Shown: one piece after another, positions 1 through 26,167 of the stretch
Position numbering within the stretch: position 1 is the first letter of the stretch
Layout: the number at the start of each line of letters is the position of its first letter
From: an uncultured Planctomycetaceae bacterium
GTDB taxonomy: Bacteria > Planctomycetota > Phycisphaerae > SM23-33
Assembly: GCA_964631565.1 (NCBI GenBank)
Contig: CAZVYJ010000001.1
Coordinates: 12,705 to 76,704 of the forward strand
Direction of reading: 5' to 3'
Length of the DNA: 64,000 bases
Notes under the pieces: model-generated
The model's database searches: none
Told to the model about the DNA's origin: nothing
Seen by the model: the letters and a program-made list of their open reading frames with translations, nothing else
Translations under genes and position numbers: made by a program

Positions 1-270
1 CGCGGTGCGGTCGTCGATTTCGCGTGTGACTACGGCCGATGCGCTGAACGCCGCGATGAGCAGCCCCGACACGAGCAGCGTGCTCAGGCCGAGGCTTATG
101 AGCATCTGCTGGTCGACTTTCGTGAACTCGCCGGAGGTGGACATGGTCCAGCCTGCCAGCGGCACGGAAAGAACCAGCACGCCCAGCGTCACGAGTATGA
201 GCACGCCGACGATCGGCTGGCGTATGGTCTGAACGAAAGTATTTCCGGCTATCGTTATGAAGCGAATCAT
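1..270 (-). CDS. ABC-2 type transporter permease, N-terminal part (gene runs off window start)
   Basis: Reverse translation from rc-ATG at ~268-270 gives MIRFITIAGNTFVQTIRQPIVGVLILVTLGVLVLSVPLAGW..., a hydrophobic polytopic N-terminus. No stop before position 1, so absent from ORF track. Divergent from the 456 operon across an AT-rich spacer. Confidence 0.45.
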   Translation of the reverse strand, partial: MIRFITIAGNTFVQTIRQPIVGVLILVTLGVLVLSVPLAGWTMSTSGEFTKVDQQMLISLGLSTLLVSGLLIAAFSASAVVTREIDDRTA

Positions 271-455
271 AATTGGTCCTGCAAAGATAGTACGTATTAT
301 TATTCAAATACGAAATGTGAAAAACAAAGTCTGAAACAAATTACGGAAATTGCAGAAAATCCGAAAAACCGCGCGGCCGGCCGAATGCACCGACAAGACC
401 GTCGAAAAACGTTCGGCTGCGGGCGGTTGTGCATATTTAACACGAGGTCCATGGC

Positions 456-2756
456 ATGTTGAGTCAAAAACGCGGAAAAAACGTCGCCCTGGCGGGCGGG
501 TTGTTCCAGATGATCTTCACTGCGGTGATGATAGCGGTCTGGCGGTACACCGGGTCGATATCGGCAATGTGCACGGCCTGGCTGCTCGCGGGCGGCGTTC
601 TGCTTTGGCTGATTGTTGCGGTGCTGTTCTACTTCAATGAACTTGCCCGCCGCGAAGAGCTGGAGCTTGAGGAAATCCAGTCCGGGCGGGGCGGGCACGG
701 CCCGACGATTTTCGAGGGCGAAGAAGGCGCCGAGATGCGGCACGCCATCCGCCGGGCCGACTGGATGAACAAGTGGGCCGTCCCGTTCGCCACGCTGCTT
801 CTGGCGTTCTGCCAGGCCGCCATAGCCGTAATCTCCATGCGGTTCCTGTTCACGCAGAGCGCTCCGGTCATTACGGAAATCGGACCGGCATCGCTTTTCC
901 TCGGTCTGACGGCGTTCCTGGCGTTTCTGTTCAGCCGCTACGCCACGGGCATGGGCGGTTCGAGCCAGTGGCGGTTTCTGCGGGCGACCGGCGGATACCT
1001 GCTGGTCTGCGTGATTTTCATCGCCGCCGTCGTGCTGTCGCTGCTGATGGCGGGGCAGGGATACGGCAACGTGGACCTCATCGTCGCATACGCCGTATGC
1101 ATCGTTCAGCTTGTGCTCGCCGTCGAGCTTACGCTTAATTTCGTACTCGACCTCTACCGCCCGCGGATTCCGGGCAAGGAATATCATCCGAGTTTCGAGA
1201 GCCGCGTGTTCAGCATTCTCGCCGAGCCGGACCGCGTCGGGCATTCAATCGCCGACACGCTGAATTACCAGTTCGGCTTCGAGGTTTCGCGAACGTGGTT
1301 TTACAGGCTGGTTTCCAAGGCGTTCGTGCCGCTGCTGATACTGGCCGTCCTGATAATGTTCGCCATGAGCAGCGTTGTGCTGGTCCAGCAGGGCCAGCAA
1401 TGCGTCGTCACCAGCCTGGGCCGTCTCCAGGAGCCGGCGCTGGGGCCCGGCCTGCACTTCAAGCTGCCCTGGCCTTTCGCCACGGAGAAACGATTCAACA
1501 CCGATGAGATTCACGAAATCATACTCGGCGTCGGCGAGGCCCGCGAGCCGACGATAATCAAGGGCCGCGAGCTTTACCTCTGGACCGAGGAGCACGGCAG
1601 CAGGCAGGAGCGTGATTTCCTTGTCGCCATCCAGCCGCCAAAGGACTGGAGCGAGCCTGGCGAAAACGCCAATGCCGACAAGGTGAAAACCCCGCCGGTG
1701 GCCATGATCAAGCTGGTTGTGGTCGTGTATTACAAAATCGCTGATGTGCGGGATTACGGCTACAACTACAAGGATTCACATTCGGTTCTCGAGTCCCTGG
1801 CGTATCGCGAAATGACGCGCTACTACGCCAGCGCCACGCTGATGGACCCTATTCGCGACAAGACGTCCGGCGGCAAGGACAGGCCTGAGGCGATAATGAC
1901 GTTCGGCCGCCAGAAAGCCGCGGACAATCTCCGCAGGCTTATTCAGGCCAGGGCCGATGACATGAAGCTTGGCGTAACCATAACGCACGTCGGGATAATT
2001 TCGTCGCATCCGCCCGCCAAGGCTGCGCCGGCCTTCGAAAATGTCGCCAAGGCCGAGCGCGCCCGCGATTCAAAACGTTACGAAGCCGAGGCCGAGGCGA
2101 GCTACATGCTCGCCGGCGTCGCCGGCGACGTGGGCGAGGCGCTGCGGCTGGCCCAGGAGATAACAAAGCTCGAACAGCTTACCGACCTCTCGCGTGCCGA
2201 CGCAGCCGATGTGGGTGCGCTGGTCGATAAATACATCGCGCAGACGCAGGAGGATATAGGCCTGCTCGACAAGGAAATCGAGCGCGAGCGTATTTTGGGG
2301 CGGACCGCATCAAGCAAGATATGGCAGGACAACCAGGCCCTGCGCAAAAAGTCGGTCGCGTACCTGGATGTCCTGAAGCAGATAAAGGCGAACCCAGCCG
2401 GCTTCAACTTCACAGCCGCCGTCGAGGAGTCACAAAAGCACGCCGAGGACATGCTTGACCGCGCACGCGGTGAGCCGGCGAAACTCATCGCTGAGGCCGA
2501 GGCGGAACGCTGGCAGAAAGAACTCGGCGAGCGGGCACGGGCAGAAACGTTCTCCAGGCACCTGCTGGCGTACCGGGCCAGCCCGGACATGTACATTCTC
2601 GACCGCTGGCTCGATACATGGGACGAAGTGCTCAAAAGAGCCGCCAGCAAGCAGGTCATCGCAGTCGATCCCAACAAGGTCGAGCTCTGGCTGGACTGGA
2701 AATGGAAATCCGACCTGATGCAGGGCGTCACTTTCGAGAAAGAAAAGAAGGAATAA
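456..2756 (+). CDS. SPFH/band-7 (HflK/HflC-like) domain protein fused to an N-terminal ~8-TM domain and a long C-terminal coiled-coil region
   Basis: ATG at 456 after gaggtcc. Residues 1-290 are multi-TM. Central VVTSLGRLQEPALGPGLHFKLPWPFATEK...IHEI is the HflK/HflC SPFH signature. The C-terminus is charged and helix-rich. Confidence 0.7.
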   Translation: MLSQKRGKNVALAGGLFQMIFTAVMIAVWRYTGSISAMCTAWLLAGGVLLWLIVAVLFYFNELARREELELEEIQSGRGGHGPTIFEGEEGAEMRHAIRRADWMNKWAVPFATLLLAFCQAAIAVISMRFLFTQSAPVITEIGPASLFLGLTAFLAFLFSRYATGMGGSSQWRFLRATGGYLLVCVIFIAAVVLSLLMAGQGYGNVDLIVAYAVCIVQLVLAVELTLNFVLDLYRPRIPGKEYHPSFESRVFSILAEPDRVGHSIADTLNYQFGFEVSRTWFYRLVSKAFVPLLILAVLIMFAMSSVVLVQQGQQCVVTSLGRLQEPALGPGLHFKLPWPFATEKRFNTDEIHEIILGVGEAREPTIIKGRELYLWTEEHGSRQERDFLVAIQPPKDWSEPGENANADKVKTPPVAMIKLVVVVYYKIADVRDYGYNYKDSHSVLESLAYREMTRYYASATLMDPIRDKTSGGKDRPEAIMTFGRQKAADNLRRLIQARADDMKLGVTITHVGIISSHPPAKAAPAFENVAKAERARDSKRYEAEAEASYMLAGVAGDVGEALRLAQEITKLEQLTDLSRADAADVGALVDKYIAQTQEDIGLLDKEIERERILGRTASSKIWQDNQALRKKSVAYLDVLKQIKANPAGFNFTAAVEESQKHAEDMLDRARGEPAKLIAEAEAERWQKELGERARAETFSRHLLAYRASPDMYILDRWLDTWDEVLKRAASKQVIAVDPNKVELWLDWKWKSDLMQGVTFEKEKKE

Positions 2757-2814
2757 CTGGTAGAAATTCTCAGACATTGGAATCAACAAGGTCTGAATAC
2801 CGAGGAATACGGAC

Positions 2815-3777
2815 ATGAACAAACATATAGGATTGGTGATACTGGCTTCTCTGGTCATGTTGCTGCTGCTGGCTTATACGGTCACGTTCGTGGTCGATCA
2901 GCCCAGCGACATAATAGTGCTGACTACATTCGGGCAGGCCAGCGCAAGCGATGTATACGAGGGTGCGGAGGGGGCCGGCTGGCACTTGAAGTGGCCGTAC
3001 CCGATACAGCGTGCAGTGCGCCTGGAGAAACGCCGCATTCGCGTTTACGACCCCAACGACGCGGTCTACACGTCGGACGGGCAGGAGCTTGTCGTCAGCG
3101 CGTTCTGCATATGGGAAATAGACAAGCCGGTCGACTTCCTCTCCAACATCAAATCGGAAGCCGCCGCGTCTGAGCGCATCAGCAACCTGCTCCGCAGCAG
3201 CAAGAAGGAAATCTTCTCCAGCCGCAGCATGTCGCAGATCGTCAATACCGATCCGGACATGATGAAGCTTGGCGACATTGAGAACGAGATAGCGACCCGG
3301 CTGAAATCCTTCGTTGATGATGAAAAGTACGGCGTCAGGATCGTGCAGGTCGGAATCGAGAGAATGACGCTCACCACGGCGATAACCGAACAGGTTATCG
3401 AAACCATGAAGAAGGAACGCGAGCAGTTCGCCAAGACCTACGAGACCGAAGGCGATGCTGAGGCGACAGCGATAAAATCCCGCGCCGAGAGCGCCCGCAA
3501 GCGGATAATCGCGTTTGCCGAGCGCCACGCCAGGGACATCCGGGCCGAAGGCGAGCGGGCCGCCGCACGCGAATACAGCAAGTTCGAGGAATTCCCGCAG
3601 TTGAGCATGTTCCTGCGATACATAGACACGCTTAAGGCCGGGCTGAAAGACAACACGACGATTTTCCTGGACGGCTCGAAGATAGAGGCGATCGGCTGGT
3701 TCCGGGAAGGGGCGTCGCTGCCAAAAGGCCCGCCGATAAAGCTCGATGAAAAGGCCGGCGCCGGCGACAAGAAGTAG
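2815..3777 (+). CDS. HflC-like SPFH/band-7 membrane protein
   Basis: N-terminal TM anchor. VVDQPSDIIVLTTFGQ... and FLRYIDTLKAGLKDNTTIFL resemble the HflC C-terminal motif. 58-nt gap to the upstream gene, same strand. Confidence 0.7.
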   Translation: MNKHIGLVILASLVMLLLLAYTVTFVVDQPSDIIVLTTFGQASASDVYEGAEGAGWHLKWPYPIQRAVRLEKRRIRVYDPNDAVYTSDGQELVVSAFCIWEIDKPVDFLSNIKSEAAASERISNLLRSSKKEIFSSRSMSQIVNTDPDMMKLGDIENEIATRLKSFVDDEKYGVRIVQVGIERMTLTTAITEQVIETMKKEREQFAKTYETEGDAEATAIKSRAESARKRIIAFAERHARDIRAEGERAAAREYSKFEEFPQLSMFLRYIDTLKAGLKDNTTIFLDGSKIEAIGWFREGASLPKGPPIKLDEKAGAGDKK

Positions 3778-3804
3778 GACCTGGAATATCCGGAGACAGC
3801 TGAC

Positions 3805-5121
3805 ATGGCTGAAAAAATACATAATCATGACAACTGCCCGCACGGCCGCCATCATCGCGACGATGGGTACGAGCCTGTGATTCAGGACGCCGCCTCGCAA
3901 AGCCTCGCCAAGGCGCTGAAAGCGAGCTTCAGGCTGCTTTCGCTGATAATGATTCTCATTATGGCGGCGTTCCTCGCGACCGGCCTGAAGACCATAAAGC
4001 AGAATCAGCGGGGCATAATCAAGATGTTCGGCCGGGTCGTTGGGGAGGTAGGCCCGGGCCTGGCGCACGCCTGGCCGTTCCCGATAGGCGAGATAGACGT
4101 CGTCGATGTAAGCGTGCAGAAGTTTGAGATGGACGATTTCTGGATTAACGAGACGGCCAAGGATCTCGCCACGCCGTGGGAGCAGAGAACGGCCTACAGG
4201 GGCGGGCTTAAGCCCGGCCTGGACGGCATGCTCATTACCGGCGACAGGGCGATACTGCACATGAAACTGGCATGTTCGTACCAGGTGAGTGAGCCGATAA
4301 AGTTCCGCGAAAGCATGGTCGACCCAGAGGCGACCGTCCGGTCGGTGATATGCTCCGCCGCGATCAAGGCCGTCGCGCATCGAACCGCCAGCGCCATAAT
4401 GACCGGCGAGTCGACCGCGCTTGTGAACGAAATCAAGAAAAACGCGAACGACGCCCTCGGCGAAGGCGGCCTGGACTGCGGAATAGTCCTGACGACGCTC
4501 AGTCTGCCGCAGCACAGCCCGACCTGGCCTCTGGGCGCCAAAGCCGCCTTCGACAAGGCGCAGAACGCGACCAACGTTCGTGAAGGCAAAATCAAGGACG
4601 CCTACGGCGAGGCGAAAACCATACTGCAACAGGCTGCCGGCAATGCGTATAAAGAGCTTGTCGGTTCGTTCGAACCTACGGAGGAGAAACCCACGGGGGT
4701 TCCGCTTATAGTGGCCTACGAGAAGGCCCGCGAAAATGGTAACGACGAGGAAGCCGCCATATACCTTGAGAAAATCAACAATATTCTCCTCAGTGGAGAA
4801 ACTGGCGGTGAGGCCAAGAGCATCATCGAGGACGCGAAGGCGTACAGGACGGGCATCGTCCAGGCCGTCCAGGGCCGCGCCGAAAAATTCGAAAAGCTCC
4901 TACCCGAATTCCGCAAATATCCCGACCTGATGGTGCAGAGGCTCTGGGCCGAGACCGTTGAGGAGATACTCAGCTCGCCCACGGTCGAAAAAATCATCAT
5001 CCGCGTCGGCGACCAGGTGATAAATATCCAGGCGAACCAGCCTCCGGCCGTCGCACGAAAAATGCTGGAAGAGGCGATTAAAAAGAGCAAAGAGCAGAAT
5101 AAAAAGGAAGGCGAGAAATAA
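3805..5121 (+). CDS. HflK-like SPFH/band-7 membrane protein
   Basis: RBS ggagacagctgac before ATG. TM anchor followed by IIKMFGRVVGEVGPGLAHAWPFPIGEIDVVDVSVQ (HflK-type SPFH), then a long charged tail. Confidence 0.7.
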   Translation: MAEKIHNHDNCPHGRHHRDDGYEPVIQDAASQSLAKALKASFRLLSLIMILIMAAFLATGLKTIKQNQRGIIKMFGRVVGEVGPGLAHAWPFPIGEIDVVDVSVQKFEMDDFWINETAKDLATPWEQRTAYRGGLKPGLDGMLITGDRAILHMKLACSYQVSEPIKFRESMVDPEATVRSVICSAAIKAVAHRTASAIMTGESTALVNEIKKNANDALGEGGLDCGIVLTTLSLPQHSPTWPLGAKAAFDKAQNATNVREGKIKDAYGEAKTILQQAAGNAYKELVGSFEPTEEKPTGVPLIVAYEKARENGNDEEAAIYLEKINNILLSGETGGEAKSIIEDAKAYRTGIVQAVQGRAEKFEKLLPEFRKYPDLMVQRLWAETVEEILSSPTVEKIIIRVGDQVINIQANQPPAVARKMLEEAIKKSKEQNKKEGEK

Positions 5122-5158
5122 TTCGAAATAACCGTTCGACTCGCCGGAATTCAACGAT

Positions 5159-6364
5159 ATGGCCGAAAGCTATGACAACGTGGTTGTCGTCAAAAGACTG
5201 ACGAAGGTTTTTCGCGACTTCTGGCTGCGCGAGAAGGTGACTGCCGTCGCCGACCTCGACCTGGAAATCCGCTCGAAGGAAGTGTTCGGCCTGCTGGGGC
5301 CTAACGGCTCCGGCAAGAGCACCACGCTGAAGATGGTCCTCGGCCTGCTGTTTCCGACTCGCGGCGTGATATCGGTGTTCGGCAAGCGCCCGACCGACGT
5401 CGGCACGAAGGCCCGCATCGGCTATCTGCCGGAGGAATCGTATCTTTATCCGTTCCTCAACGCCGTCGAGACGCTGGACTTTTACGGGCGCCTGTTTCAC
5501 CAGTCGCGGCACATCCGCAAGGGCAGAATCGAGATGCTCCTGGACATGGTCGGCCTTGCCGCCGTGGCGTACCGCCGCGTAGGCGAGTATTCCAAGGGCA
5601 TGCAGCGGCGCATCGGTCTGGCACAGGCGCTGATAAACGACCCGGACCTGCTCATACTCGACGAGCCGACTGCCGGAATGGACCCCATCGGCACGCGGCA
5701 GATAAAAGACCTCATCGGCGAGCTGGCGAAGCGCGGCAAGACTGTCATTTTGTCCAGCCACCTGCTCGCCGACGTGGAAGACGTGTGCGACCGCGTGTGC
5801 ATTCTTTACGGCGGCCGGCAGCGGCGGCTTGGAAGCATCGACGAACTGCTCGCCCGCCGCACACAGACGCAGATAACCATCGACGACCTTGACCCAGCGA
5901 CGCTCGCCGAAGTTCGGCAGCTGCTTGAAAAGGCCGGCAAGGAAGCCGAAATCACCACGCCTCGCGACAGGCTCGAGTCGCTCTTCCTGCGGATTGTCCG
6001 CGAGGCGAAAGAGAAAAAACTCGCCACCGGCGGTGCTGTGTCCGGCGGGCAGGTCGCGGAATTTCTCCGGGCCGAACCGGCCGAGGGCAGCCGCGTCATT
6101 ACCGAGCTTATCACCCGCGCCGAGCCGGTCCCGGCCAACCAGCCTGCCGAGGAGCCTCAGCTCCCGCCGGCGGAAGAGCAGCCCGCACGTGACGTGCTCG
6201 ACGAACTTACCGCCGGCAAGGAGCCGCCGGCCCCGGCCGCCGAGCCGCAGCCCGAAACTCCGCCTGCTGCCGCGAAAAACGCGACACGGCAGGACGATGC
6301 CGACAGAGGCTTTATCGACGGGCTTATCGGCGGTGCCGACAAATCCAACTCGGAGGATTCATAA
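5159..6364 (+). CDS. ABC transporter ATP-binding protein with Pro/Ala/Glu-rich C-terminal extension
   Basis: Walker A GPNGSGKST, signature YSKGMQRR, Walker B LLILDEPTAGMD, H-loop SSHLL. The ~130-aa low-complexity tail (PAEEPQLPPAEEQPA...) is unusual. Confidence 0.9.
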   Translation: MAESYDNVVVVKRLTKVFRDFWLREKVTAVADLDLEIRSKEVFGLLGPNGSGKSTTLKMVLGLLFPTRGVISVFGKRPTDVGTKARIGYLPEESYLYPFLNAVETLDFYGRLFHQSRHIRKGRIEMLLDMVGLAAVAYRRVGEYSKGMQRRIGLAQALINDPDLLILDEPTAGMDPIGTRQIKDLIGELAKRGKTVILSSHLLADVEDVCDRVCILYGGRQRRLGSIDELLARRTQTQITIDDLDPATLAEVRQLLEKAGKEAEITTPRDRLESLFLRIVREAKEKKLATGGAVSGGQVAEFLRAEPAEGSRVITELITRAEPVPANQPAEEPQLPPAEEQPARDVLDELTAGKEPPAPAAEPQPETPPAAAKNATRQDDADRGFIDGLIGGADKSNSEDS

Positions 6365-6366
6365 CG

Positions 6367-8049
6367 ATGCGCAGTATATGGGCCGTCGCGAGACAGACGC
6401 TCGCTCAGTGCCTGCGCATGAAGGTGGCCGGCGTGTTCATCGTGCTGCTGGCCGTCGTGGTTACGGCGCTGCCTTTCACCCTAAAGGGCGACGGCACGCT
6501 GGCAGGGCAGATCAGGACATTCCTTTCATACAGCGTTTCAATGACGACTGTGTTGCTCACTATCGTCACCATTTTTCTGTCGGTCGGCGTGGTTTCGTCC
6601 GACGTGCAGGACAAGCAGGTGTTCCTGCTGGCCGTCAAGCCGCTGGGGAGAGGCGAATACGTGCTCGGCCGATGGCTGGGCGTGGTGGTGTTCGACGCGA
6701 TACTGATACTGGCTTCCGGCGCGATAATTTACGGACTGGCGCAGCATCTTCGCGGCGGCAAGGTCATGAACGATAACGACCGCCGCGCCGTCGAAATGGA
6801 AATATTCTCATCGCGGGCCAAAGTCAGGCCGGACTCCATCGAGGGAGATATAGAAAAAAACATCCTCGATCGAATCGGCAGGCTGAAGCAGGAAGGCAGA
6901 TACGATGCTTCGCTTGATGCGTATAAGGAGCGAACCGGCGGCGACCGTCAGGCCGCCGAGGTGATGCTGCTGGATGAAATCCGCCAGCAGGTCACTGAGG
7001 ATCTCCAGTCGGTCAAACCGGGCGAAAGCATGACGCTTGTTTTCAGCGGCATCCGGCCGCAGGGCGGCGAGGTGCACGGCAAGGGAACTGTAGGCCAGGT
7101 CGTCGAAGACAATGCGAACAAGCTCGTCTATTTCGAAATGTCGACGTCGCGGCGATTCCTTGGACAGCTCATCGCCGGCTATCCTCTGCGGATCGCGGAC
7201 CGCGACGCATGGGTCAGCGAGCTTCGCAGGGAAACCTTCGTGGGCGTCATGCATGCCGACGACGCCGAACGCATAACTTTGAAAACCGGCGAGGAAATGC
7301 AGCTCACCGCCGAGCCGGTCATACAGATAAGCTACCAGCTGAAGCCTTCACAGACCCCGCCGAACGAGCGCCAGCTTTACGGCGAATGGGAAGTCGCCGG
7401 CGGCGACATAACCAAAAAAAATGAGAATACCGAAAGCAGCGAAAGGTATCTTCCGCTGCCTCGCCGCGACCCCATCCGCGTCCAGACGACGCTCATAGCG
7501 TCGGCCAGGGTGGTCGGCAAGGACGGCAAAATATCGGTCACGTACACCAACAGGCCCGATCCCCAGACCGGCTTCGTAACCGCCGTTACGCTGGACCGCA
7601 ATGACGCCGCGGTTCTCTACCGCATCGGCTCGTTCGAGATGAACTTTGTTCACGGGCTTATGCTGATTCTGTTCCAGATGATGTTCATGGCGGCCGTCGG
7701 CGTGATGGCCGGCACGTTTCTGTCGTTCGCCGTGGGCTGCATACTTTCGTTCGCCGTTCTGCCGTTCAGCCTCGCCCGGGCGTTTCTTTCCGATGCCGTC
7801 AGGCTGAGCGAGAGCAGGGAAAACGACGTGTGGACCGTCGGCGGGCACTACATATATAAAGTGATGGCCGCCGTTCTGCCCGACCTCGGCAGCATATCGG
7901 TGTCGGACTTCCTTGTGGACGGCGTCGCGATATCATGGTCTCTGGTCGGAACCTCGGCCCTGTGGACAATCGGCGTGCGCACGGCGCTGGTGCTCGTTGT
8001 CGCATGCCTGATATTCTACAGGCGCGAGCTTGCGAGAGTTCAGGTGTAG
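6367..8049 (+). CDS. ABC-2 family permease with large (~270 aa) extracytoplasmic loop
   Basis: ATG 2 nt after the upstream stop. Hydrophobic N-terminal helices, a long soluble insert (res ~130-400), then 4-5 C-terminal TM helices. Confidence 0.65.
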   Translation: MRSIWAVARQTLAQCLRMKVAGVFIVLLAVVVTALPFTLKGDGTLAGQIRTFLSYSVSMTTVLLTIVTIFLSVGVVSSDVQDKQVFLLAVKPLGRGEYVLGRWLGVVVFDAILILASGAIIYGLAQHLRGGKVMNDNDRRAVEMEIFSSRAKVRPDSIEGDIEKNILDRIGRLKQEGRYDASLDAYKERTGGDRQAAEVMLLDEIRQQVTEDLQSVKPGESMTLVFSGIRPQGGEVHGKGTVGQVVEDNANKLVYFEMSTSRRFLGQLIAGYPLRIADRDAWVSELRRETFVGVMHADDAERITLKTGEEMQLTAEPVIQISYQLKPSQTPPNERQLYGEWEVAGGDITKKNENTESSERYLPLPRRDPIRVQTTLIASARVVGKDGKISVTYTNRPDPQTGFVTAVTLDRNDAAVLYRIGSFEMNFVHGLMLILFQMMFMAAVGVMAGTFLSFAVGCILSFAVLPFSLARAFLSDAVRLSESRENDVWTVGGHYIYKVMAAVLPDLGSISVSDFLVDGVAISWSLVGTSALWTIGVRTALVLVVACLIFYRRELARVQV

Positions 8050-8055
8050 GAAAGT

Positions 8056-9963
8056 ATGAGTTTGCAGTCGCAGAAAATACGGTGGGTCTGGCTGGCGATT
8101 GCCGCCGCGGGCATCGCCTCGGCCGGCCTCCTGCACGCGCCGCTCGACGAGCTGAGCGAGAAATACGAACTCGAGCCAATCGACAAGGGAACCATCGAGC
8201 GATACCCGCAGCTGGCGCTTCTCCAGACTGCGCCGGGCGGCCTGCGGGCGATTGCCGTCAACTATCTCTGGATACGCTCGCAGGATTTCAAGGAGCAGGG
8301 GCGTTTCTACGATGCCATGCAGCTGGCCACCACGATATGCTACCTCCAGCCGCGATTTGAAGGCGTATGGGCGTTCAACTCGTGGAATATGGCGTGGAAT
8401 ATTTCCGTAGCCACTCACACGCCCGAGGAGCGATGGCAGTGGGTGTACAACGGCGTGAAGCTTCTGCGCGACGACGGAATACCGATGAACCGCCGCTCGC
8501 TGCTGCTGTACAAGGAGCTGGCGTGGATATTCTTCTTCAAGATGGGCCAGTATACCGACGACATGCACATGGTCTACAAGCAGCGGTGGGGCGGCGAAAT
8601 GCAGGATTTGCTGTCTTCACCGCCGTACGGCGGCACGAAGGATGTAATCGACGCCTTCCGCCCGATAGCTGCCGCCCCGCTGGACAAGGACATCAGAAGG
8701 CAGGGTCTCGAAGAGATTCAGCCGGACATGCGCGACCAACTGCTTTCCGATGCGGAACTGGCCGATTACGCCGGTAAGCTGCAGGCCGTCGGCGTCGGCG
8801 TGGACCGCTCGCTGCTCGACGCCTACAACCGCGTCAGCATGGCTCCCGATGCGTATCTGTATCGCCTGGATGTCCCTAAGCAGGAGACCGATGAGGAAAA
8901 AACGCTGTTTGAACTCATAAACGGCAGCGCCTACGCCGCACAGAGAACGAAGCTGCTTGCCTTCGTCAGGGCGCAGATTCTCTGGAACAAATACAAAATG
9001 GACCCGGCCTGGATGCTGGACCTGATGGTCCGACTGGACGCGCCGCTGGACTGGCGTCATGTCTATTCGCATTCGCTGTACTGGGTCACATACGGCATAC
9101 ACGTGTGCGACAGCCTGGGAATGTCGGACATCATCGCGCTGAATACCGACCGCATCGTTCTGAACTCGCTCAAGGAAATGACCTGGACGGGCAGGCTCAT
9201 ACTTACGCGAAATCCGCGCAACCCCGACATGCCGGACCTGCGCTGGCTGGCCGACTTCAGATTTGTCGAGCCGACACAGACGGAATATATGCGAATCATA
9301 AACGCCATAGCGTCAAGCAAGGCTGCCGACGACGAGAAAAACGATTTCGAAAGCGGGCATATAAACTATCTCGCGACCGCCATCGCGGGACTGTACGCCG
9401 ATTACCAGCGGGACGAGGCGCAGAAGTACTTCGACTGGATAAAGAGCTATTACAGGAAAACCGGCGAAGAGTGGGACATGCCGCTGGGCGATTTTGTTGC
9501 TTACCGCCTGAACAAGGAAGGCAGCCCGATTCGCGACATCGCCGACAGCCAGATAACCGCCGCCCTGAGAACGTGGCTGAGGCTCACCGCGGCCAACCAG
9601 CCGGACGAGGCCCGGCAGAGCCTGCAGTATGCCATGATGGTTTACGACATATACGCCAAAAATGTGACCGCCGACCGCATGAAGCAAGCTGAGTTTCTTT
9701 CCATATTAAGCTCCGTGGCGGCCGAGGTGCTCATCAGGCCGGAAACCCTGGGCTTCCATATACCGCTTGCTGACCGATCCAGGGTGTACAGAATGCTCAA
9801 CGAAAACGTCCAGACGCTGATTTACGACAGCATAGACATTTATCTCCGTCCGCTGTGCGATGAGCAGAATTACGATTTCGACAAGGCGTTCCCGATGCCC
9901 GAAAGTCTGAAAAAGTACCGCGAAAAACTCCATGAGAGGATAAAAGTGGAGAAGAATAAGTAA
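8056..9963 (+). CDS. hypothetical membrane-anchored protein (635 aa), operon partner of the ABC/SPFH genes
   Basis: 6-nt gap after the permease. N-terminal signal/anchor WVWLAIAAAGIASAGLL. No recognisable catalytic motif. Trp/Tyr-rich. Confidence 0.55.
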   Translation: MSLQSQKIRWVWLAIAAAGIASAGLLHAPLDELSEKYELEPIDKGTIERYPQLALLQTAPGGLRAIAVNYLWIRSQDFKEQGRFYDAMQLATTICYLQPRFEGVWAFNSWNMAWNISVATHTPEERWQWVYNGVKLLRDDGIPMNRRSLLLYKELAWIFFFKMGQYTDDMHMVYKQRWGGEMQDLLSSPPYGGTKDVIDAFRPIAAAPLDKDIRRQGLEEIQPDMRDQLLSDAELADYAGKLQAVGVGVDRSLLDAYNRVSMAPDAYLYRLDVPKQETDEEKTLFELINGSAYAAQRTKLLAFVRAQILWNKYKMDPAWMLDLMVRLDAPLDWRHVYSHSLYWVTYGIHVCDSLGMSDIIALNTDRIVLNSLKEMTWTGRLILTRNPRNPDMPDLRWLADFRFVEPTQTEYMRIINAIASSKAADDEKNDFESGHINYLATAIAGLYADYQRDEAQKYFDWIKSYYRKTGEEWDMPLGDFVAYRLNKEGSPIRDIADSQITAALRTWLRLTAANQPDEARQSLQYAMMVYDIYAKNVTADRMKQAEFLSILSSVAAEVLIRPETLGFHIPLADRSRVYRMLNENVQTLIYDSIDIYLRPLCDEQNYDFDKAFPMPESLKKYREKLHERIKVEKNK

Positions 9964-10055: not shown

Positions 10056-10321
10056 TCAGCAAATCAGTCAGTTTGGGTAGGTTGATCATCAAATCCGTCT
10101 GGTTCTTTAGATAATTATTACAGGGTTCCGGAACTTCTTCGGCAGTTGTGCGTCTTATATTCGGCTGAGCCTGATACAGGTTACTTACCGACTATAGTAA
10201 GCGTCAAAAGTCTTTTCGCGTTACCGGCAACGCCCGTCCCTGAGGGGCTGGCAAAAAACCTCACCCGGCGGAAAAAACTATTGGCAGGCATTCTAAAACT
10301 CTTGCGAAAGGAGATAATGCA

Positions 10322-11567
10322 CATGAAACTCCGAAACACCATACTGCTTCTTTTGGCCGCTTCCATTCTGGTTTTGCCGGCGGCTGCGACGGCGCGCGTG
10401 AAACTGGCGGCCCTTCCGCAGCGCGAGCGCGTCGAAATCCAGCTCGATAACGGCATGTATACGCTGGTCGAGGAAGAGCGCATCGTTCCGCTGCTCAAGT
10501 CGACGGCCGAGGCCGGAAACAACAAAATCGATTTCAGCTGGTCGAACACCCAGATCGACAAGGATTCGATCCTGTTCCGCCCGATAGCCGTCAGCGAAGA
10601 CGGCAAGTTCCGCCCGGTGAAGACCGACGGCGACAAGCCGGAGGTGAGCGTGATAAACGTCGCCTACCCGCCGGGCGAGAACGCCCTTGTGTGGGAAGTC
10701 TACGCAGCCGAAGCCTGCGCCGTTAAAGTGCGGGTCAGCTACCTCATCAACAACCTGAGCCGCTCGTTCTCGTACCGCGTGCTGGCAAACAAGGACGAGA
10801 CCGTCCTGACCCTGAAAAACTACATCCAGCTCAGCAACTACTCCGGAGAGGAGTTCGGCACATCCGGCGTATGGGCTGGGTTCGGACCGTCGTTCATGAA
10901 GGAAATCGGCTACCAGGAAGACGTCAAGATGCTCATCAGGAGCTTCAAGGACGTGCCCATCGAGAAGACCTACACCTACGACTGGTACGTCAACGGGCCG
11001 CTCAACCCGGACAAGCCGTTCGCTTCCAAGGTGGTCATGCACTACAAGCTCATCAACGATGAGAAGCACAATCTGGGCGAATTCCCGCTGCAGCCCGGCA
11101 AGGCCAGGATATTCATTCAGGACGGCCGCGGCGGAGAGGCGTTCCTCGGAGAGGACTGGGCTTCGCTTACCCCGCTGGACGGCAAGATGAAGCTTTATCT
11201 CGGCGAGGCCCGCGACGTGGTCTGCACGCGGACGATCCAGGATAACAAGCGACACGAAGTCCGCGGCAACCTGTTCAACCAGGAAATCACCATCAAGTAC
11301 GAAATCGAGAACTTCAAGGACAAGCCGGTCACTCTCGACATCATCGAGCGGATGAACAACATCGCCCAGCAGTACGGCAGCGACCCGCACGGCGACGCGG
11401 AGTGGACGGTCGGCGACAACACCTCCAAGAACATCAAGTTCGACTATGAATACGGCGGCGCGACGCCTACGCTGAAGGTCGAGCTGCCGGCCCGGCCGAA
11501 AAACCCGGATGAAAAAGTCCAGAAACTCACGTTCACGTTCCACTTCACCATAAAGAACCTCTGGTAA
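10322..11567 (+). CDS. secreted hypothetical protein, paralog 1 of tandem triplet
   Basis: aaggag RBS 10 nt before ATG at 10322 (ORF-track start 10146 rejected). Signal peptide MKLRNTILLLLAASILVLPAAATA. Shares architecture and motifs (IDFSWSNTQIDKDSILFRP...) with the next two genes at ~35% identity. Confidence 0.65.
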
Positions 11568-11593
11568 GCGGCAGGGAAGAAAGGAGAAATGTC

Positions 11594-12946
11594 ATGAAAC
11601 GCAATGCGATTATGATGACGCTGCTTCTGGCCGCCCTTGCCGCCACGGCGCCGGCCGAGAACGTGGACCTGGTCACGCTGCCCAGCCGCGACACGGTGCA
11701 GCTGACCATCTACAACTCCGAGGACATCACGCTGGTCAAGGAGACACGCAACGTCACGCTGAAAAAAGGCTCCAACAAGATTCAATTTTCGTGGGCAGGC
11801 ACGCTTATCGATCCCACGAGCGTGGAATTCCGCCCGCTGACGCATGTTGATGAAATTGAATTGTCCGACACCGTATTCCCCGGCCAGAAGCCCCAGCACT
11901 TAATCTGGAATATCGACTCCAAGTTTGAGGGCGAAGTGAAGGTCGAGGTCAGCTACTTCACCAGCGGCCTGACATGGACGATGGACTACGTCGCCACCTG
12001 CGACCCGGCCGAGGAGAAGATGCAGCTTCGCGGCTATGTTCGCGTATTCAATAATTCCGGCGAGGAATACGAGAACGCCGAGGTGCATCTGATTGTCGGC
12101 ACGATAAACCTCGTCGAGAAGATAGCCGACCTCGCCCGCCGCCAGGGCATACAAGTACCACAGCGGGGCACGGCAGAGCATGAAAGGTTGAGAAAACAGG
12201 TCACATTGGAGGCTGCGGACAAGGCTGAAGAGGTTGCATTTGCGGCGCCTGCTGCCTCAATGCCGCCGAAGATAGTCAAGGAAGGCCTGAGCGAGTACTT
12301 CATGTTCTCCATAGAAGGCACGGAGACTATTCCCGACGGCTGGTCGAAACGCATGGAAGCCGTAAAGGCCGACGACGCCAAGTTCGAAATACTTTACCGC
12401 ATGCGGGACTTCCAGTACGGTCCGCGGCCGGTGCGATTCTTCATCTGGCGGAACGACGATGAGCACAAGCTCGGCGAGTCGCCGCTGCCTGACGGCCGCG
12501 TGCGCATCTTCCGCGAAAACGGCAAGGACGGCCTGAGTTTCCTCGGTGAGCAGCAGATCCGCTACGTGCCGATAAAGGCTGAGATTGAAGTCAACCTCGG
12601 CGCTGACGACCTTGTCGTCTACGAGACTCGCAAGATGTCCTCAGAGCGGCTGAACTTCCACTTCCACTGGGTTGATAATCACGAGTACGTGGACGGCTGG
12701 GACGAGAAATGCCAGTGGCTGGACACCGTCCGCAACTACCGCACCAAGCCGATAAAGTTCGAGCTTCGCCGCCGCTGGCTTGGCGATGTCGATTACACGT
12801 CTGAAGTCGCGACGACGCTGTTCGACTTCAACACGATAGAGACGACCATCGACATCGGCGCCCGCGACAAGAAAGACTATCCCTGCACGGTAATCACACA
12901 CTACGGCACCAACAAGAAGCAGGAACAGATAAGGATAGGCAAATGA
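11594..12946 (+). CDS. secreted hypothetical protein, paralog 2
   Basis: aaggagaaatgtc ATG. Signal peptide MKRNAIMMTLLLAALAATAPA. ~93% nt identity to paralog 3 apart from a replaced central cassette. Confidence 0.75.
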   Translation: MKRNAIMMTLLLAALAATAPAENVDLVTLPSRDTVQLTIYNSEDITLVKETRNVTLKKGSNKIQFSWAGTLIDPTSVEFRPLTHVDEIELSDTVFPGQKPQHLIWNIDSKFEGEVKVEVSYFTSGLTWTMDYVATCDPAEEKMQLRGYVRVFNNSGEEYENAEVHLIVGTINLVEKIADLARRQGIQVPQRGTAEHERLRKQVTLEAADKAEEVAFAAPAASMPPKIVKEGLSEYFMFSIEGTETIPDGWSKRMEAVKADDAKFEILYRMRDFQYGPRPVRFFIWRNDDEHKLGESPLPDGRVRIFRENGKDGLSFLGEQQIRYVPIKAEIEVNLGADDLVVYETRKMSSERLNFHFHWVDNHEYVDGWDEKCQWLDTVRNYRTKPIKFELRRRWLGDVDYTSEVATTLFDFNTIETTIDIGARDKKDYPCTVITHYGTNKKQEQIRIGK

Positions 12947-14304
12947 AAACGCAGATATGGATTACATCCGTGCTGCTCCTGACCGCCCTCGCCGCAGCGA
13001 CGCATGCCGCGAACGTGGACCTGGTCACGCTGCCCAGCCGCGACACGGTGCAACTGACCATCTACAACTCCGAGGATATTACGCTGGTCAAGGAGACACG
13101 CAATATCACGCTGAAGAAGGGCATGAATAAAATTCAGTTTTCATGGGCAGGCACGCTTATTGACCCGACGAGTGTGGAGTTCCGCCCGCTGACGCATGTT
13201 GATGAAATTGAATTGGCGGATACCGTATTTCCCGGCCAGAAGCCCCAGCACCTGATATGGAACATCGACTCGAAGTTTGAGGGTGAGGTGAAGGTTGAAG
13301 TGAGCTACTTCACCAGCGGCCTGACATGGACGATGGACTACGTCGCCACCTGCGACCCGGCCGAGGAGAAGATGCAGCTTCGCGGCTATGTTCGCGTGTT
13401 CAACAATTCCGGCGAGGAATACGAGAACGCCGAAGTCCGTCTTATTGTCGGCACGATAAATCTCGTCGAGAAGATAGCCGACCTCGCTCGCCGCAAGGGA
13501 ATACCCGTACCTCTTGAAGACAGTAAAGATTATAACGAAATGAAGAGAGGCGCCATAACAAAGAGCATCACCAGGTCAGAACGGGAATTCGATGGCGACA
13601 TGATTGAGGGAAAAAAGCCGCATGGGATAGTCAAGGAAGGCCTGAGCGAGTACTTCATGTTCTCGATAGAGGGCACGGAGACCATCCCCAACGGCTGGTC
13701 GAAACGCATGCAGGCGGTGAAGGCCGACGACGCGAAGTTCGACATACTTTACCGCATGCGTGACTTCCAGTACGGCCCGCGGCCGGTACGTTTCTTCATC
13801 TGGCGCAACGATGAGGAGCACAAGCTCGGCGAGTCGCCTCTGCCTGACGGCCGCGTACGCATCTTCCGCGAAAACGGCAAGGACGGCCTGAGCTTCCTCG
13901 GCGAGCAGCAGATACGCTACGTGCCGATAAAGGCTGAGATTGAAGTCAACCTCGGCGCTGACGACCTTGTCGTCTACGAGACCCGCAAGATGTCCTCTGA
14001 GCGGCTGAACTTCCACTTCCGATGGTCGGGCAGCAGGGAATGCGTGGACGGCTGGGACGAGAAATGCGCCTGGCTGGACACGGTCCGCAACTACCGCACC
14101 AAGCCGATAAGATTCGAGCTTCGCCGCCGCTGGCTTGGCGATGTCGATTACACGTCCGAAGTGACGACGACGCTGTTCGACTTCAACACGATTCAGACGA
14201 CCATCGACATCGGCGCCCGCGACAAGAAGGATTACCCCTGCACGGTGGTCACTCATTATGGAGTCAACAGCAAGCAGAACAGGATAAATCTCAGGAAAGA
14301 TTGA
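12943..14304 (+). CDS. secreted hypothetical protein, paralog 3
   Basis: ATGA overlap with the stop of paralog 2. Signal peptide [22 protein letters not shown]. Near-identical to paralog 2 outside 13494-13628. Confidence 0.75.
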
Positions 14305-22191: not shown

Positions 22192-23022
22192 TCATTGCTC
22201 CTGTTCTAGGGGTTCTGGTCGGGCCGAGTTCTTGGATGCCGGGCCATTCGTATCTTGAAGGCAGTTCTTATTGACCACATCGCCGCGCCGGCCTCTGTGT
22301 TCGTACGAATCCGGCGTCCAGTGAAAGTCTTTCAGGATGCTGACCGCAAAGCATTCTTCGGGTGGGGCATTCAGCAGACGCCTGGCATAGTCCCATTCCA
22401 TGCGCTGGCAAAGCCGCATCTCCTCCAGCGTGCACCCACCGGAGCGGATCTTCTCTTCCAGGGCGAGCACCTCAGCCGGAAAGACACCGGCCTTCAGCGA
22501 TACTTTGACGGTCTTGCCCGTCGAGAAACGGTGCAGGATGAACTCGTTGCCCAGCGCCGGGTCGATCTTCTGCGTGCCAAACCGGACTCTCCCGCCTGTC
22601 AGGTATGCGGCCACATCCCCATAGCACGGCGAATTGTTCGTGATGCAGCCAGTATCGGTCCGGTCTATAATGCCATCGGGATACAGAGCATTCAGGCCCA
22701 CGGACATGGCACATGCGGCTGTGACTAGGCCGTCGCACGGATGGCCATGCATCTTGACCAGGTCCTTCAGCGTGATTGTCTTCGTTTCGGAGACGTAGGG
22801 GCCGAGGCTGCTCTCCGTGTCCCTGACGTGGAACACCGGCGCGTACTGGCCCCTGGCCATCCAGTCGAAATAGTACCACGTAGGGCTGTTATCCATCGAC
22901 TCCGTCGTCTTCATTGTGCCGCCGGAGCGGTCCGTACAACCGGCAAGGCAAGCTGCTTCCATTGCGAATGCAAGGGTCGCCACAGCCCCCACAACGACAT
23001 GATGTCTGTTGATACAACTCAT
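22192..23022 (-). CDS. FmdE/FwdE-domain lipoprotein
   Basis: Internal start MSCINRHHVVVGAVATLAFAMEAACLAGC (lipobox), with ATGA overlap to the RND stop. HGHPCDGL motif of the FwdE family. ORF-track extension to 23418 rejected. Confidence 0.55.
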   Translation of the reverse strand: MSCINRHHVVVGAVATLAFAMEAACLAGCTDRSGGTMKTTESMDNSPTWYYFDWMARGQYAPVFHVRDTESSLGPYVSETKTITLKDLVKMHGHPCDGLVTAACAMSVGLNALYPDGIIDRTDTGCITNNSPCYGDVAAYLTGGRVRFGTQKIDPALGNEFILHRFSTGKTVKVSLKAGVFPAEVLALEEKIRSGGCTLEEMRLCQRMEWDYARRLLNAPPEECFAVSILKDFHWTPDSYEHRGRRGDVVNKNCLQDTNGPASKNSARPEPLEQEQ

Positions 23023-26150: not shown

Positions 26151-26167
26151 GGAAAAGCCGATGAGAT

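What the first reader, a model, noticed from the sequence alone, without database searches (positions are those of the whole stretch)
456..9963. Operon coupling three SPFH/band-7 paralogs to an ABC exporter and a 635-aa unknown protein, with no FtsH partner
Three consecutive SPFH genes (HflK-like, HflC-like, and a 766-aa version fused to an ~8-TM N-terminal domain with a coiled-coil tail) are followed, with gaps of 2-58 nt, by an ABC ATPase, an ABC-2 permease and an uncharacterised 635-aa membrane-anchored protein. The ATPase carries a ~130-aa Pro/Ala/Glu-rich C-terminal tail, and the permease a ~270-aa extracytoplasmic loop. A second ABC-2 permease is divergently transcribed upstream. HflK/C cages are known around the FtsH protease; here the arrangement suggests an SPFH cage or microdomain organised around an ABC transporter instead.
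Basis: inference. Interest (0 to 1): 0.65.

Follow-up and report, generated by a model that had tools for sequence, protein, structure and literature searches.

The report
SPFH trio wired to ABC transporter
A seven-gene module conserved across Phycisphaerae (Planctomycetota) joins three HflK/HflC-like membrane-scaffold proteins to an ABC transporter and a helical-repeat partner, which suggests but does not prove that a scaffold known for caging a protease here serves a transporter.

Summary
Six co-directional genes (gaps 58, 27, 37, 2 and 6 nt) encode three SPFH proteins, an ABC ATPase, an ABC-2-like permease and a 635-aa unknown. A second ABC-2 permease is transcribed divergently upstream.

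Corrections: the 766-aa gene comes first, it has 7 TM helices rather than 8, and the ATPase tail is about 100 aa.

The layout is not unique. It recurs in the same order in all 30 species-level Planctomycetota genomes with enough sequence, at 30-50% protein identity and with varying downstream flanks.

New findings:
- The 766-aa and 438-aa proteins are HflK-type and the 320-aa protein is HflC-type.
- The 766-aa protein carries a six-helix domain whose predicted fold matches only CDF/ZnT metal transporters, but it lacks their metal site.
- The 635-aa protein is a TPR-like solenoid.
- The ATPase tail holds 1-3 copies of a conserved amphipathic motif. The motif is present wherever the SPFH genes are, and absent in the one clade that keeps the transporter and solenoid genes but has no SPFH genes.
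- A P1B metal ATPase neighbour and a His-rich HflK-like N-terminus hint at metals.

Genetic coupling is strong. A physical cage is untested, and missing ftsH adjacency is uninformative. I rate it a new variant of a known kind, interest about 0.6.

The parts
1..270 (-). G: first 90 codons of a divergently transcribed ABC-2 permease. It runs off the window start; the full length is 539 aa in L061.
   Evidence: Start codon at 268-270. The full protein from L061 scores ABC2_membrane_2 31.3 bits against GA 27.2. It is a paralog of E (hhalign probability 99%). In the SPFH-less loci it sits directly upstream of D on the same strand.
271..455 (.). Divergent intergenic region between G and A, AT-rich at 285-370; presumed shared promoter region.
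   Evidence: Sequence. One weak sigma-70-like match on the minus strand at 323-296. In 23 of 33 orthologous regions an ATTGTA hexamer sits 60-130 nt (mostly 81-93 nt) from the G start; it is absent in this window.
456..2756 (+). A: 766-aa HflK-type SPFH protein with an N-terminal polytopic domain.
   Evidence: Band_7 52.5 bits over residues 310-548. TIGR01933 hflK 83.9 bits, below the 159.4 cutoff. The family profile hits E. coli HflK at E 8.7e-22. More than 875 homologs, all named ones from Phycisphaerae or Planctomycetota.
456..1157 (+). A residues 1-234: six-TM bundle with a CDF/ZnT-like predicted fold.
1158..1373 (+). A residues 235-306: the most conserved stretch of A. It comprises a cytoplasmic amphipathic segment (invariant YQFGF..S..WFY) plus TM7, the SPFH anchor.
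   Evidence: Conservation 0.58-0.68. Invariant columns. Helices 250-273 and 279-306 in the model. The positive-inside pattern places residues 233-280 in the cytoplasm and the SPFH domain in the periplasm.
2100..2753 (+). A residues 549-766: long helical, charged C-terminal region. Its last part is homologous to the HflK C-terminal region.
   Evidence: Residues 656-730 align to HflK 265-339 (E 7.4e-6) and to C residues 335-398. The composition is 53-58% A/E/L/K/R/Q with few P or G. Coiled-coil character was not predicted formally.
2815..3777 (+). B: 320-aa HflC-type SPFH protein with one N-terminal TM helix.
   Evidence: Band_7 77.6 bits. TIGR01932 hflC 98.8 bits over residues 8-284, below the 134.4 cutoff. 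Best PDB match is HflC at E 1.4e-14. TM at residues 1-29.
3805..5121 (+). C: 438-aa HflK-type SPFH protein. It has a cytoplasmic N-terminus of about 42 aa, then one TM helix.
   Evidence: Band_7 50.2 bits. TIGR01933 hflK 124.7 bits, below the 159.4 cutoff. Best PDB match is HflK at E 3.5e-21. A conserved SLAxALRxSFRLL motif lies just before the TM helix.
3805..3864 (+). C residues 1-20: His/Cys-rich cytoplasmic N-terminus (MAEKIHNHDNCPHGRHHRDD).
   Evidence: 19 of 41 orthologs have at least 4 His in this segment, and up to 13. L063 reads MTHDHEHHDHDHAHDHEHEHHHNHDHD.
5159..6364 (+). D: 401-aa ABC ATPase of the DrrA/GldA/NodI-like group.
   Evidence: ABC_tran 102 bits. All named NCBIfam subfamilies score below their cutoffs. 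Walker A at 47, signature at 144, Walker B at 164 and H-loop at 199. This is the most conserved gene of the cluster, at 60-72% identity.
6059..6361 (+). D residues 301-401: P/A/E-rich acidic tail with three copies of an amphipathic motif (VITELI at about 313, VLDELT at about 346, DRGFIDGLI at 382-390 = nt 6302-6328).
   Evidence: One search gives the sequence and composition. The motif is found in 40 of 45 orthologs by a strict pattern, and 3 more (L001, L015, L017) show a variant of it by eye in the printed tail ends. With a looser pattern it is in 31 of 31 tails that could be delimited, against 0.008 copies per tail in shuffles. It is present in L062 and L063. In the SPFH-less loci L058 and L060 the tail is only 23-31 aa and has no motif.
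6367..8049 (+). E: 560-aa ABC-2-like permease with 6 TM helices and a loop of about 300 aa (residues 125-427 = nt 6739-7647) between TM3 and TM4, predicted periplasmic.
   Evidence: ABC2_membrane_2 20.3 bits, below GA. hhalign to G gives 99% probability. The L060 ortholog scores 31.4 bits. Topology. The loop is poorly conserved at 0.16-0.32 identity, while the C-terminal RRELARVQV is conserved even in L055.
8056..9963 (+). F: 635-aa membrane-anchored (or secreted) all-helical TPR-like solenoid, predicted periplasmic.

Best explanation
This is a conserved envelope module of Phycisphaerae made of two sub-modules that work together.

Sub-module 1 is an ABC-2 machine. It comprises ATPase D, two paralogous permeases G and E (a likely heterodimeric membrane domain, with E carrying a periplasmic loop of about 300 aa), and the periplasmic TPR-like solenoid F.

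Sub-module 2 is an HflK/HflC-type SPFH assembly built from one C-type subunit (B) and two K-type subunits (C and A). All three SPFH domains face the periplasm. A adds a six-helix CDF-like membrane domain.

Shown:
- The gene order and its conservation.
- The family and fold assignments.
- The predicted topologies.
- The ABC sub-module (G-D-E-F) exists on its own in one clade.
- The ATPase carries a long acidic tail with 1-3 copies of a conserved amphipathic motif only where the SPFH genes are present.

Inferred: the SPFH proteins form an HflK/C-like hetero-oligomeric ring or cage on the periplasmic face that holds or confines the ABC machine. The periplasmic loops of E and G and protein F would lie on the same side as the SPFH domains. 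The ATPase tail motifs would tether the transporter from the cytoplasmic side to conserved cytoplasmic segments of the SPFH subunits, namely A residues 233-280 or the pre-TM motif of C.

The cargo is unknown. An ABC-2 machine with a large periplasmic loop and a solenoid partner fits export, or ATP-driven handling, of an envelope component better than solute uptake.

Rough confidences: one functional unit about 0.8; direct SPFH-ABC physical complex about 0.45; literal enclosure in a cage about 0.3.
For: - Synteny. G|A-B-C-D-E-F is found in 30 of 30 species-level genome loci with enough sequence. It is also in metagenome loci L001-L006, a 7.4-Mb complete genome (L056), a 2.76-Mb MAG contig (L057), L059, and partly in L063. 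Protein identities are only 29-52% (D 60-72%), and the downstream neighbours differ (BPL_LplA, UvrC, DUF4272, FAA_hydrolase, radical SAM, DUF4139).
- Tight spacing. C to D is 37 nt here and 4-49 nt elsewhere. D to E is 2 nt and E to F is 6 nt.
- HflK/HflC typing.
- Same-side topology.
- Modularity. L058 and L060 have G-D-E-F and no SPFH gene.
- Tail motif co-occurrence. It is present in every SPFH-linked D examined, enriched about 180-fold over shuffles, and absent with a truncated tail in the SPFH-less loci.
- E and G are paralogs.
Against: - No physical evidence exists and no complex model could be run.
- The tail/SPFH co-occurrence rests on one SPFH-less clade, so it is effectively a single evolutionary event.
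- That clade shows the ABC machine can work without SPFH genes nearby.
- B and C lie close to true HflC and HflK (98.8 and 124.7 bits). They could be this lineage's ordinary FtsH modulators, and I could not test whether another hflKC pair exists in these genomes.
- The disordered tail could equally be an FtsH initiation site.
- The substrate is unknown.
Confidence: 0.45

Rival explanations
1. B and C (with A) are simply this lineage's HflC and HflK. They cage FtsH, which is encoded elsewhere, as in E. coli. The ABC machine is either a dedicated FtsH client, with the long disordered tail of D acting as the protease's initiation or recognition site, or is merely co-regulated.
For: - The best solved-structure and NCBIfam matches of B and C are HflC and HflK over almost their full length.
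- Canonical hflKC operons also lack ftsH (PMC13086221), so the absence of ftsH here means nothing.
- From established knowledge, FtsH starts degrading membrane proteins from flexible cytoplasmic tails of about 20 aa or more. D has a tail of about 100 aa only where SPFH genes are present.
Against: - All three proteins score below the curated HflK/HflC equivalog cutoffs.
- A third, polytopic K-type subunit has no counterpart in the FtsH system.
- A degradation tag would not need 1-3 copies of a strictly conserved amphipathic motif.
- Strict operon conservation with an ABC machine is not seen for canonical hflKC.
Confidence: 0.3
2. The module is a metal-handling system. The CDF-like domain of A conducts or senses a divalent cation, the His-rich tail of C binds it, the neighbouring P1B ATPase exports it, and the NosY-like ABC-2 machine with F delivers or inserts metal into a periplasmic target. 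This can coexist with the main explanation.
For: - The fold of A residues 1-234 matches only CDF/ZnT transporters by two methods.
- A P1B heavy-metal ATPase (TIGR01525 548.7 bits, CPC motif) lies tail-to-tail with G in 28 of the fetched loci (several are duplicate assemblies) at 64-77% identity, including the distant L059.
- The C N-terminus is His-rich in 19 of 41 orthologs.
- E and G belong to ABC2_membrane_2, the family that includes NosY (the NosY link is from established knowledge).
Against: - The canonical CDF metal site (D/H-xxx-D in TM2 and TM5) and the cytoplasmic CDF domain are absent, and there is no Cation_efflux HMM hit.
- The ATPase neighbour is missing in L056, L057, L058 and L060.
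- The His-rich tail is absent in about half of the orthologs.
- No metal-responsive regulator or operator was found.
Confidence: 0.15
3. The adjacency is inherited synteny without a functional link: two unrelated membrane systems that happen to sit together in one class.
For: All occurrences are within one phylum. The ABC sub-module occurs alone in one clade.
Against: - The order is kept at 30-50% identity while the downstream flanks are scrambled.
- The intergenic gaps are operon-like.
- The SPFH trio is inserted between two genes of the same transporter, G and D.
- The tail motif tracks SPFH presence.
Confidence: 0.05

Closest known systems
E. coli HflK/HflC-FtsH complex (PDB 7VHP, 7WI3, 9CZ1)
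   Same: - An adjacent K-type and C-type SPFH gene pair, each protein with an N-terminal TM anchor and periplasmic SPFH domain.
- A homologous C-terminal region.
- These are the best sequence matches in the PDB.
   Different: - Scores fall below the equivalog cutoffs.
- There is a third subunit with a six-TM CDF-like domain.
- The genes sit inside an ABC transporter operon.
- The client is unknown and FtsH involvement is untested.
Stomatin/flotillin-NfeD operons (QmcA-YbbJ, YuaG-YuaF, PH1511-PH1510)
   Same: An SPFH scaffold is encoded together with its membrane partner in one operon (PMC2636767). QmcA is a weak PDB match of the TM/SPFH start of A (E 1.1e-5).
   Different: No NfeD gene was found in any locus. 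The partner genes here are an ABC ATPase, two permeases and a solenoid.
P. aeruginosa PaFlo5-PaFlo6-PaFlo7 operon
   Same: Three SPFH paralogs in one predicted operon (PMC13086221).
   Different: It is patchily distributed and thought to be horizontally acquired, and that paper mentions no ABC transporter. Here the trio is vertically conserved across a class and coupled to an ABC machine. Sequence relatedness to the PaFlo proteins was not tested.
ABC-2 machines with a periplasmic partner (NosFY-NosD, GldA-GldF-GldG)
   Same: A DrrA/GldA-like ATPase with ABC2_membrane_2-type permeases and a dedicated periplasmic protein encoded in the operon. That these systems work by moving a partner rather than a solute is from established knowledge.
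   Different: - D is far below the GldA cutoff (178.8 against 402.6).
- No GldF, GldG, NosY or NosD model is hit.
- The partner F is a TPR-like solenoid, not a beta-helix.
- There are two different permeases.
- The module includes an SPFH trio.
Cation diffusion facilitators (YiiP, ZnT/SLC30)
   Different: - No sequence similarity.
- No TM2/TM5 metal site.
- No cytoplasmic C-terminal domain.
- The domain is fused to TM7 plus an SPFH domain.
Eukaryotic stomatin-family regulators of channels and transporters (stomatin-ASIC/GLUT1, MEC-2-MEC-4, podocin-TRPC6)
   Same: Concept only: an SPFH oligomer that binds and tunes a transport protein (established knowledge, not tested here).
   Different: They are monotopic hairpin proteins on the cytoplasmic face and are not genetically linked to their clients.

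Membership tests
SPFH / Band 7 superfamily (PF01145) | Pfam Band_7 score above the gathering threshold | tested here: met
   A scores 52.5, B 77.6 and C 50.2 bits against 23.6.
HflK / HflC (FtsH modulators) | Score above the curated equivalog cutoff of TIGR01933 (hflK) or TIGR01932 (hflC) | tested here: not met
   C scores 124.7 and A 83.9 against 159.4. B scores 98.8 against 134.4.
HflK / HflC (FtsH modulators) | Adjacent K-type and C-type paralogs whose closest solved relatives are HflK and HflC | tested here: met
   C matches HflK at E 3.5e-21. B matches HflC at 1.4e-14. The A family profile matches HflK at 8.7e-22.
HflK / HflC (FtsH modulators) | Single N-terminal TM helix with the SPFH domain in the periplasm | tested here: met
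   B and C have one TM helix with the N-terminus inside. A reaches the same orientation after 7 TM helices, which is an architectural difference. This is prediction only.
HflK / HflC (FtsH modulators) | Physical and functional association with FtsH | not testable with these tools
   No ftsH was found in the window or in about 1.0 Mb of related loci. Canonical hflKC operons are not next to ftsH either (PMC13086221).
SPFH-NfeD operon | NfeD gene adjacent to the SPFH gene | tested here: not met
   No NfeD family appears among the cluster genes in the window or the loci.
ABC transporter, ABC-2 type | Nucleotide-binding domain with Walker A, signature, Walker B and H-loop | tested here: met
   ABC_tran 102.1 bits. 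The motifs are at residues 47, 144, 164 and 199.
ABC transporter, ABC-2 type | ABC-2 membrane domain above the Pfam threshold | tested here: inconclusive
   G passes at 31.3 against 27.2. E in the window fails at 20.3, but E is homologous to G (hhalign 99%) and its L060 ortholog passes at 31.4.
Named ABC-2 subfamilies (GldA, DrrA, NodI, LptB, RbbA) | Score above the curated NCBIfam cutoff | tested here: not met
   RbbA scores 248.8 against 1050, DrrA 195.3 against 312, GldA 178.8 against 402.6, NodI 167 against 521 and LptB 129.8 against 240.
Cation diffusion facilitator (CDF) | Six-TM CDF membrane fold | tested here: met
Cation diffusion facilitator (CDF) | Cation_efflux HMM match, and the D/H-xxx-D metal site in TM2 and TM5 | tested here: not met
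   No Pfam hit at E <= 0.01. TM2 and TM5 contain no conserved D or H. The definition of the site is from established knowledge of YiiP.
Cation diffusion facilitator (CDF) | Cytoplasmic C-terminal metal-binding domain | tested here: not met
   TM6 is followed by an amphipathic segment, TM7 and the SPFH domain.
TPR / helical-repeat proteins | TPR-like alpha-solenoid fold | tested here: met
TPR / helical-repeat proteins | TPR sequence motif (Pfam TPR models) | tested here: not met
   No Pfam hit for F. Only 2 of the 120 homologs listed carry PF13428.
Known anti-phage defence systems (PADLOC) | Match to a defence-system model | tested here: not met
   Only generic ABC-ATPase matches for D, and none for the other six proteins.

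The most novel reading that the evidence does not exclude
The three SPFH proteins form a periplasm-facing cage whose wall incorporates CDF-like ion pathways, contributed by subunit A. Inside it an ABC-2 machine and its solenoid partner work, with the transporter held in place from the cytoplasm by multivalent tail motifs on its ATPase. That would be a bacterial SPFH 'reaction chamber' dedicated to a transporter, possibly a metal-dependent envelope process, rather than to a protease.
Probability: 0.12. Interest if true: 0.85.

Novelty: new variant of a known kind. Interest (0 to 1): 0.6.

Why it matters
SPFH proteins (HflK/C, prohibitins, stomatins, flotillins, erlins) are now known to build large cages. 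For bacteria, however, the only structurally defined client is the FtsH protease, and what the cages do for their clients is still debated.

A module in which the client is written into the operon would be a genetically defined second case. Here that client would be an ABC machine with a periplasmic partner and an ATPase tail that looks like a tether. The module also has a natural control: one clade keeps the transporter and lacks the SPFH genes and the tail. It would allow a direct test of whether SPFH cages are general confinement devices for membrane machines.

The work also assigns a fold and a context to a protein family of about 2,900 clusters (F) and to a CDF-like/SPFH fusion. I found neither described in the literature I could search. 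Finally, it adds a conserved, unexplored envelope system to Phycisphaerae, a group whose envelope biology is poorly known.

Tried and rejected
- The N-terminal domain of A as an ABC-2 permease fused to SPFH. hhalign against E and G rejected this, with probability below 1%.
- The weak Caveolin Pfam hit in A (residues 254-308; E 0.006, 17 bits against 25). It is below threshold and I treat it as chance.
- A defence system. PADLOC found none.
- FtsH nearby. None was found in the window or in about 1.0 Mb of loci. I judged this uninformative.
- Terminators and promoters inside the cluster. The scans did not exceed the shuffled expectation in a meaningful way.
- A metal-regulator operator in the G-A intergenic region. 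K-mer search found only an ATTGTA element at a fixed distance, which is more likely a promoter element, and it is absent from this window.
- Literature. No paper links SPFH with Phycisphaerae, an ABC operon or CDF.
- The afdb50 fold library was unavailable.
- The organism behind CP087563.1 could not be identified.
- A mirror-tree co-evolution analysis was considered and not run, because shared phylogeny would dominate and no good control gene set was available.
- The long antisense ORFs (for example 2770-4629 on the minus strand, 619 aa) are treated as artefacts of high G+C, because they overlap conserved genes on the + strand.

Full report
**1. What is in the sequence**

The + strand of window 456-9963 holds six long ORFs: A at 456-2756 (766 aa), B at 2815-3777 (320), C at 3805-5121 (438), D at 5159-6364 (401), E at 6367-8049 (560) and F at 8056-9963 (635). 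The gaps between them are 58, 27, 37, 2 and 6 nt.

A seventh gene, G, starts at about nt 270 on the minus strand and runs off the window. Another assembly of the same DNA (L061) gives its full 539-aa product. The next gene upstream there is a 659-aa P-type ATPase.

The 766-aa gene comes first. It has 7 TM helices rather than about 8. The ATPase tail is about 100 aa. The permease loop is about 300 aa.

**2. Family assignments**

- **SPFH proteins.** A, B and C all pass Pfam Band_7. NCBIfam and PDB sequence searches type B as HflC-like (98.8 bits; HflC E 1.4e-14). They type C as HflK-like (124.7 bits; HflK E 3.5e-21) and A as HflK-like (83.9 bits; family profile against HflK E 8.7e-22). All three are below the curated equivalog cutoffs. 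A and C share the HflK-specific C-terminal segment.
- **ATPase.** D is a complete ABC ATPase of the DrrA/GldA/NodI-like group, but it belongs to no named subfamily.
- **Permeases.** G passes ABC2_membrane_2. E misses the threshold in this genome, but it is a paralog of G (hhalign 99%) and an ortholog passes. The transporter therefore most likely has a heterodimeric G+E membrane domain.
- **Protein F.** F matches nothing by sequence.

**3. Structures**

The CDF hallmarks are missing, however. There is no Cation_efflux HMM hit, no D/H-xxx-D in TM2 or TM5, and no cytoplasmic domain. The conserved membrane-embedded polar residues are instead Q18, Q218, the invariant E224, N228 and D232. I therefore call the domain CDF-like in fold, not a CDF.

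**4. Topology**

The positive-inside pattern of A is clean. The loops predicted to be cytoplasmic hold 3, 7, 2 and 6 Lys+Arg, and the three short loops predicted to be periplasmic hold none. This puts the N-terminus inside and the SPFH domain in the periplasm, as for B and C and for E. coli HflK/C. The large loop of E and almost all of F are predicted to be periplasmic too. The tail of D is cytoplasmic. All of this is prediction only.

**5. Conservation**

F has hundreds of homologs and 2915 cluster representatives. Every named one is from Phycisphaerae or Planctomycetota and is annotated as hypothetical.

A scan of one genome per species returned 49 loci. In all 30 with enough upstream DNA, tblastn finds G, A, B, C, D, E and F in the same order, and the truncated contigs show every gene their length allows. 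G is on the opposite strand in all but two of them (L047, L052).

Gene calls with Pfam tags confirm the layout in metagenome loci. They also confirm it in a 7.4-Mb complete genome, a 2.76-Mb contig and a distant Planctomycetes MAG.

Identities are 29-52% for A, B, C, E and F and 60-72% for D. The downstream neighbours differ from locus to locus.

**6. Modularity**

In one marine clade (L058, L060, and L055 of the genome scan), the locus reads G-D-E-F on one strand with no SPFH gene in 12-17 kb. The ABC sub-module with F is thus a unit of its own. Elsewhere the SPFH trio sits between two genes of that unit.

**7. A tail motif that tracks the SPFH genes**

The ATPase is conserved up to about residue 300 (...VAEFL). 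Beyond that lies an acidic tail of 80-190 aa (mostly 80-130) that is moderately rich in P, A and E (29-55%), with low identity but conserved presence.

Within the tail, about 10-25 residues from the C-terminus, nearly every ortholog has D-R-x-V-I-D-x-L-L; in this window it reads DRGFIDGLI at residues 382-390. A strict pattern finds it in 40 of 45 orthologs. Three more (L001, L015, L017) show a variant by eye in the printed tail ends.

With a looser pattern, 31 of 31 tails that could be delimited have at least one copy and 12 have two or more. The window has three. Composition-preserving shuffles give 0.008 copies per tail. L062 and L063 have three copies each.

The two SPFH-less loci have tails of 23-31 aa without the motif. 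This is what a tethered short linear motif for a partner supplied by the SPFH genes would look like. Candidate docking sites are the two most conserved cytoplasmic pieces of the SPFH proteins. One is A residues 233-280, with the invariant YQFGF..S..WFY. The other is the SLAxALRxSFRLL motif just before the TM helix of C.

The caveat is that the contrast rests on one clade.

**8. Metal hints**

The P-type ATPase next to G is a P1B heavy-metal pump (TIGR01525 548.7 bits; CPC and DKTGT motifs). It is kept tail-to-tail with G in 28 of the fetched loci (several are duplicate assemblies) at 64-77% identity, but it is missing in L056, L057, L058 and L060.

The cytoplasmic N-terminus of C is His-rich, and sometimes Cys-rich, in 19 of 41 orthologs. 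Together with the CDF-like fold of A, this makes a metal-related role a reasonable secondary hypothesis. No defining feature of a metal site was met.

**9. FtsH**

No FtsH-like sequence occurs in the window or in about 1.0 Mb of related loci. Canonical hflK-hflC operons do not include ftsH either (PMC13086221). Absence of adjacency therefore says nothing about partnership.

**10. Literature**

Full-text searches found no description of this cluster. They also found no SPFH-ABC operon, no SPFH-CDF fusion and nothing on SPFH proteins in Phycisphaerae.

The 2009 survey of prokaryotic SPFH operons mentions no ABC partner (PMC2636767). A three-SPFH operon exists in P. aeruginosa (PaFlo5-7), and that paper mentions no ABC transporter.

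**11. Verdict**

The genetic coupling of an HflK/C-type SPFH trio to an ABC-2 machine is real, ancient within Phycisphaerae and apparently undescribed.

Physical coupling is plausible. It is supported by the same-side topology and by the tail motif that tracks the SPFH genes, but it is unproven. The 'cage around a transporter instead of FtsH' reading competes with 'ordinary HflK/C plus FtsH, with the ABC machine as client'.

I rate it a new variant of a known kind, with interest about 0.6.

Noticed in passing
L061 120-2099 (same organism, just upstream of the window start); also the upstream ends of L001-L012, L014, L016, L017, L021, L024, L025, L034, L036, L037, L040-L042, L044, L047 and L059: A 659-aa P1B heavy-metal P-type ATPase (CPC motif; by its length it has no N-terminal HMA domain; it has an HLAHGHMHMDE stretch). 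It is conserved tail-to-tail with permease G in 28 of the fetched loci (several are duplicate assemblies) at 64-77% identity, and is absent in L056, L057, L058 and L060.
   Followed up: partly
window 3805-3864 (C residues 1-20) and orthologs: The cytoplasmic N-terminus of the HflK-like protein is His-rich, and sometimes Cys-rich, in 19 of 41 orthologs, with up to 13 His. It looks like a metal-binding tail.
   Followed up: partly
L058 and L060 (also L055): A marine clade, including Tara Oceans sequences, keeps G-D-E-F on one strand and lacks the three SPFH genes and the ATPase tail. In one subgroup F is shortened to about 422 aa.
   Followed up: partly
G-A intergenic regions of 33 loci; window 271-455 lacks the element: An ATTGTA hexamer (TACAAT on the G strand) lies 60-130 nt, mostly 81-93 nt, from the G start in 23 of 33 orthologous divergent regions. 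It is probably a conserved promoter element.
   Followed up: partly
window 10146-14304, + strand: Three consecutive paralogous genes of 473, 450 and 453 aa follow the cluster after 182 nt. Two match DUF4139 (one above the Pfam threshold, one just below it) and the third matches it only faintly. This neighbourhood is not conserved in other loci.
   Followed up: no
L059 14046-20805: In one distant locus the cluster is followed by hopanoid-type genes: squalene-hopene cyclase, polyprenyl synthase and radical SAM. SPFH microdomains are often linked to polyisoprenoid lipids. This is seen in a single locus only.
   Followed up: no
window 52381-55086, + strand: A 901-aa fusion of 4Fe-4S ferredoxin and F420-hydrogenase beta-like (FrhB) domains with a polysaccharide pyruvyl transferase. 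It lies near a capsule-synthesis-like gene at 48688-50106.
   Followed up: no
window 23019-27832, - strand; window 33682-36921, + strand: An RND efflux pair (AcrB-like 1064 aa plus HlyD-like 554 aa), and a 1079-aa protein whose only Pfam match is an LptD_N/LptA-like domain.
   Followed up: no
window 2770-4629, - strand (also 300-1244, - strand): Long antisense ORFs (619 and 314 aa) overlap the conserved + strand genes. They are typical high-G+C artefacts, not genes.
   Followed up: yes
window 8020-8046 (E C-terminus) and orthologs: The extreme C-terminus of permease E (RRELARVQV) is conserved even in the most distant SPFH-less homolog (L055). It may be a cytoplasmic contact point with the ATPase.
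   Followed up: no
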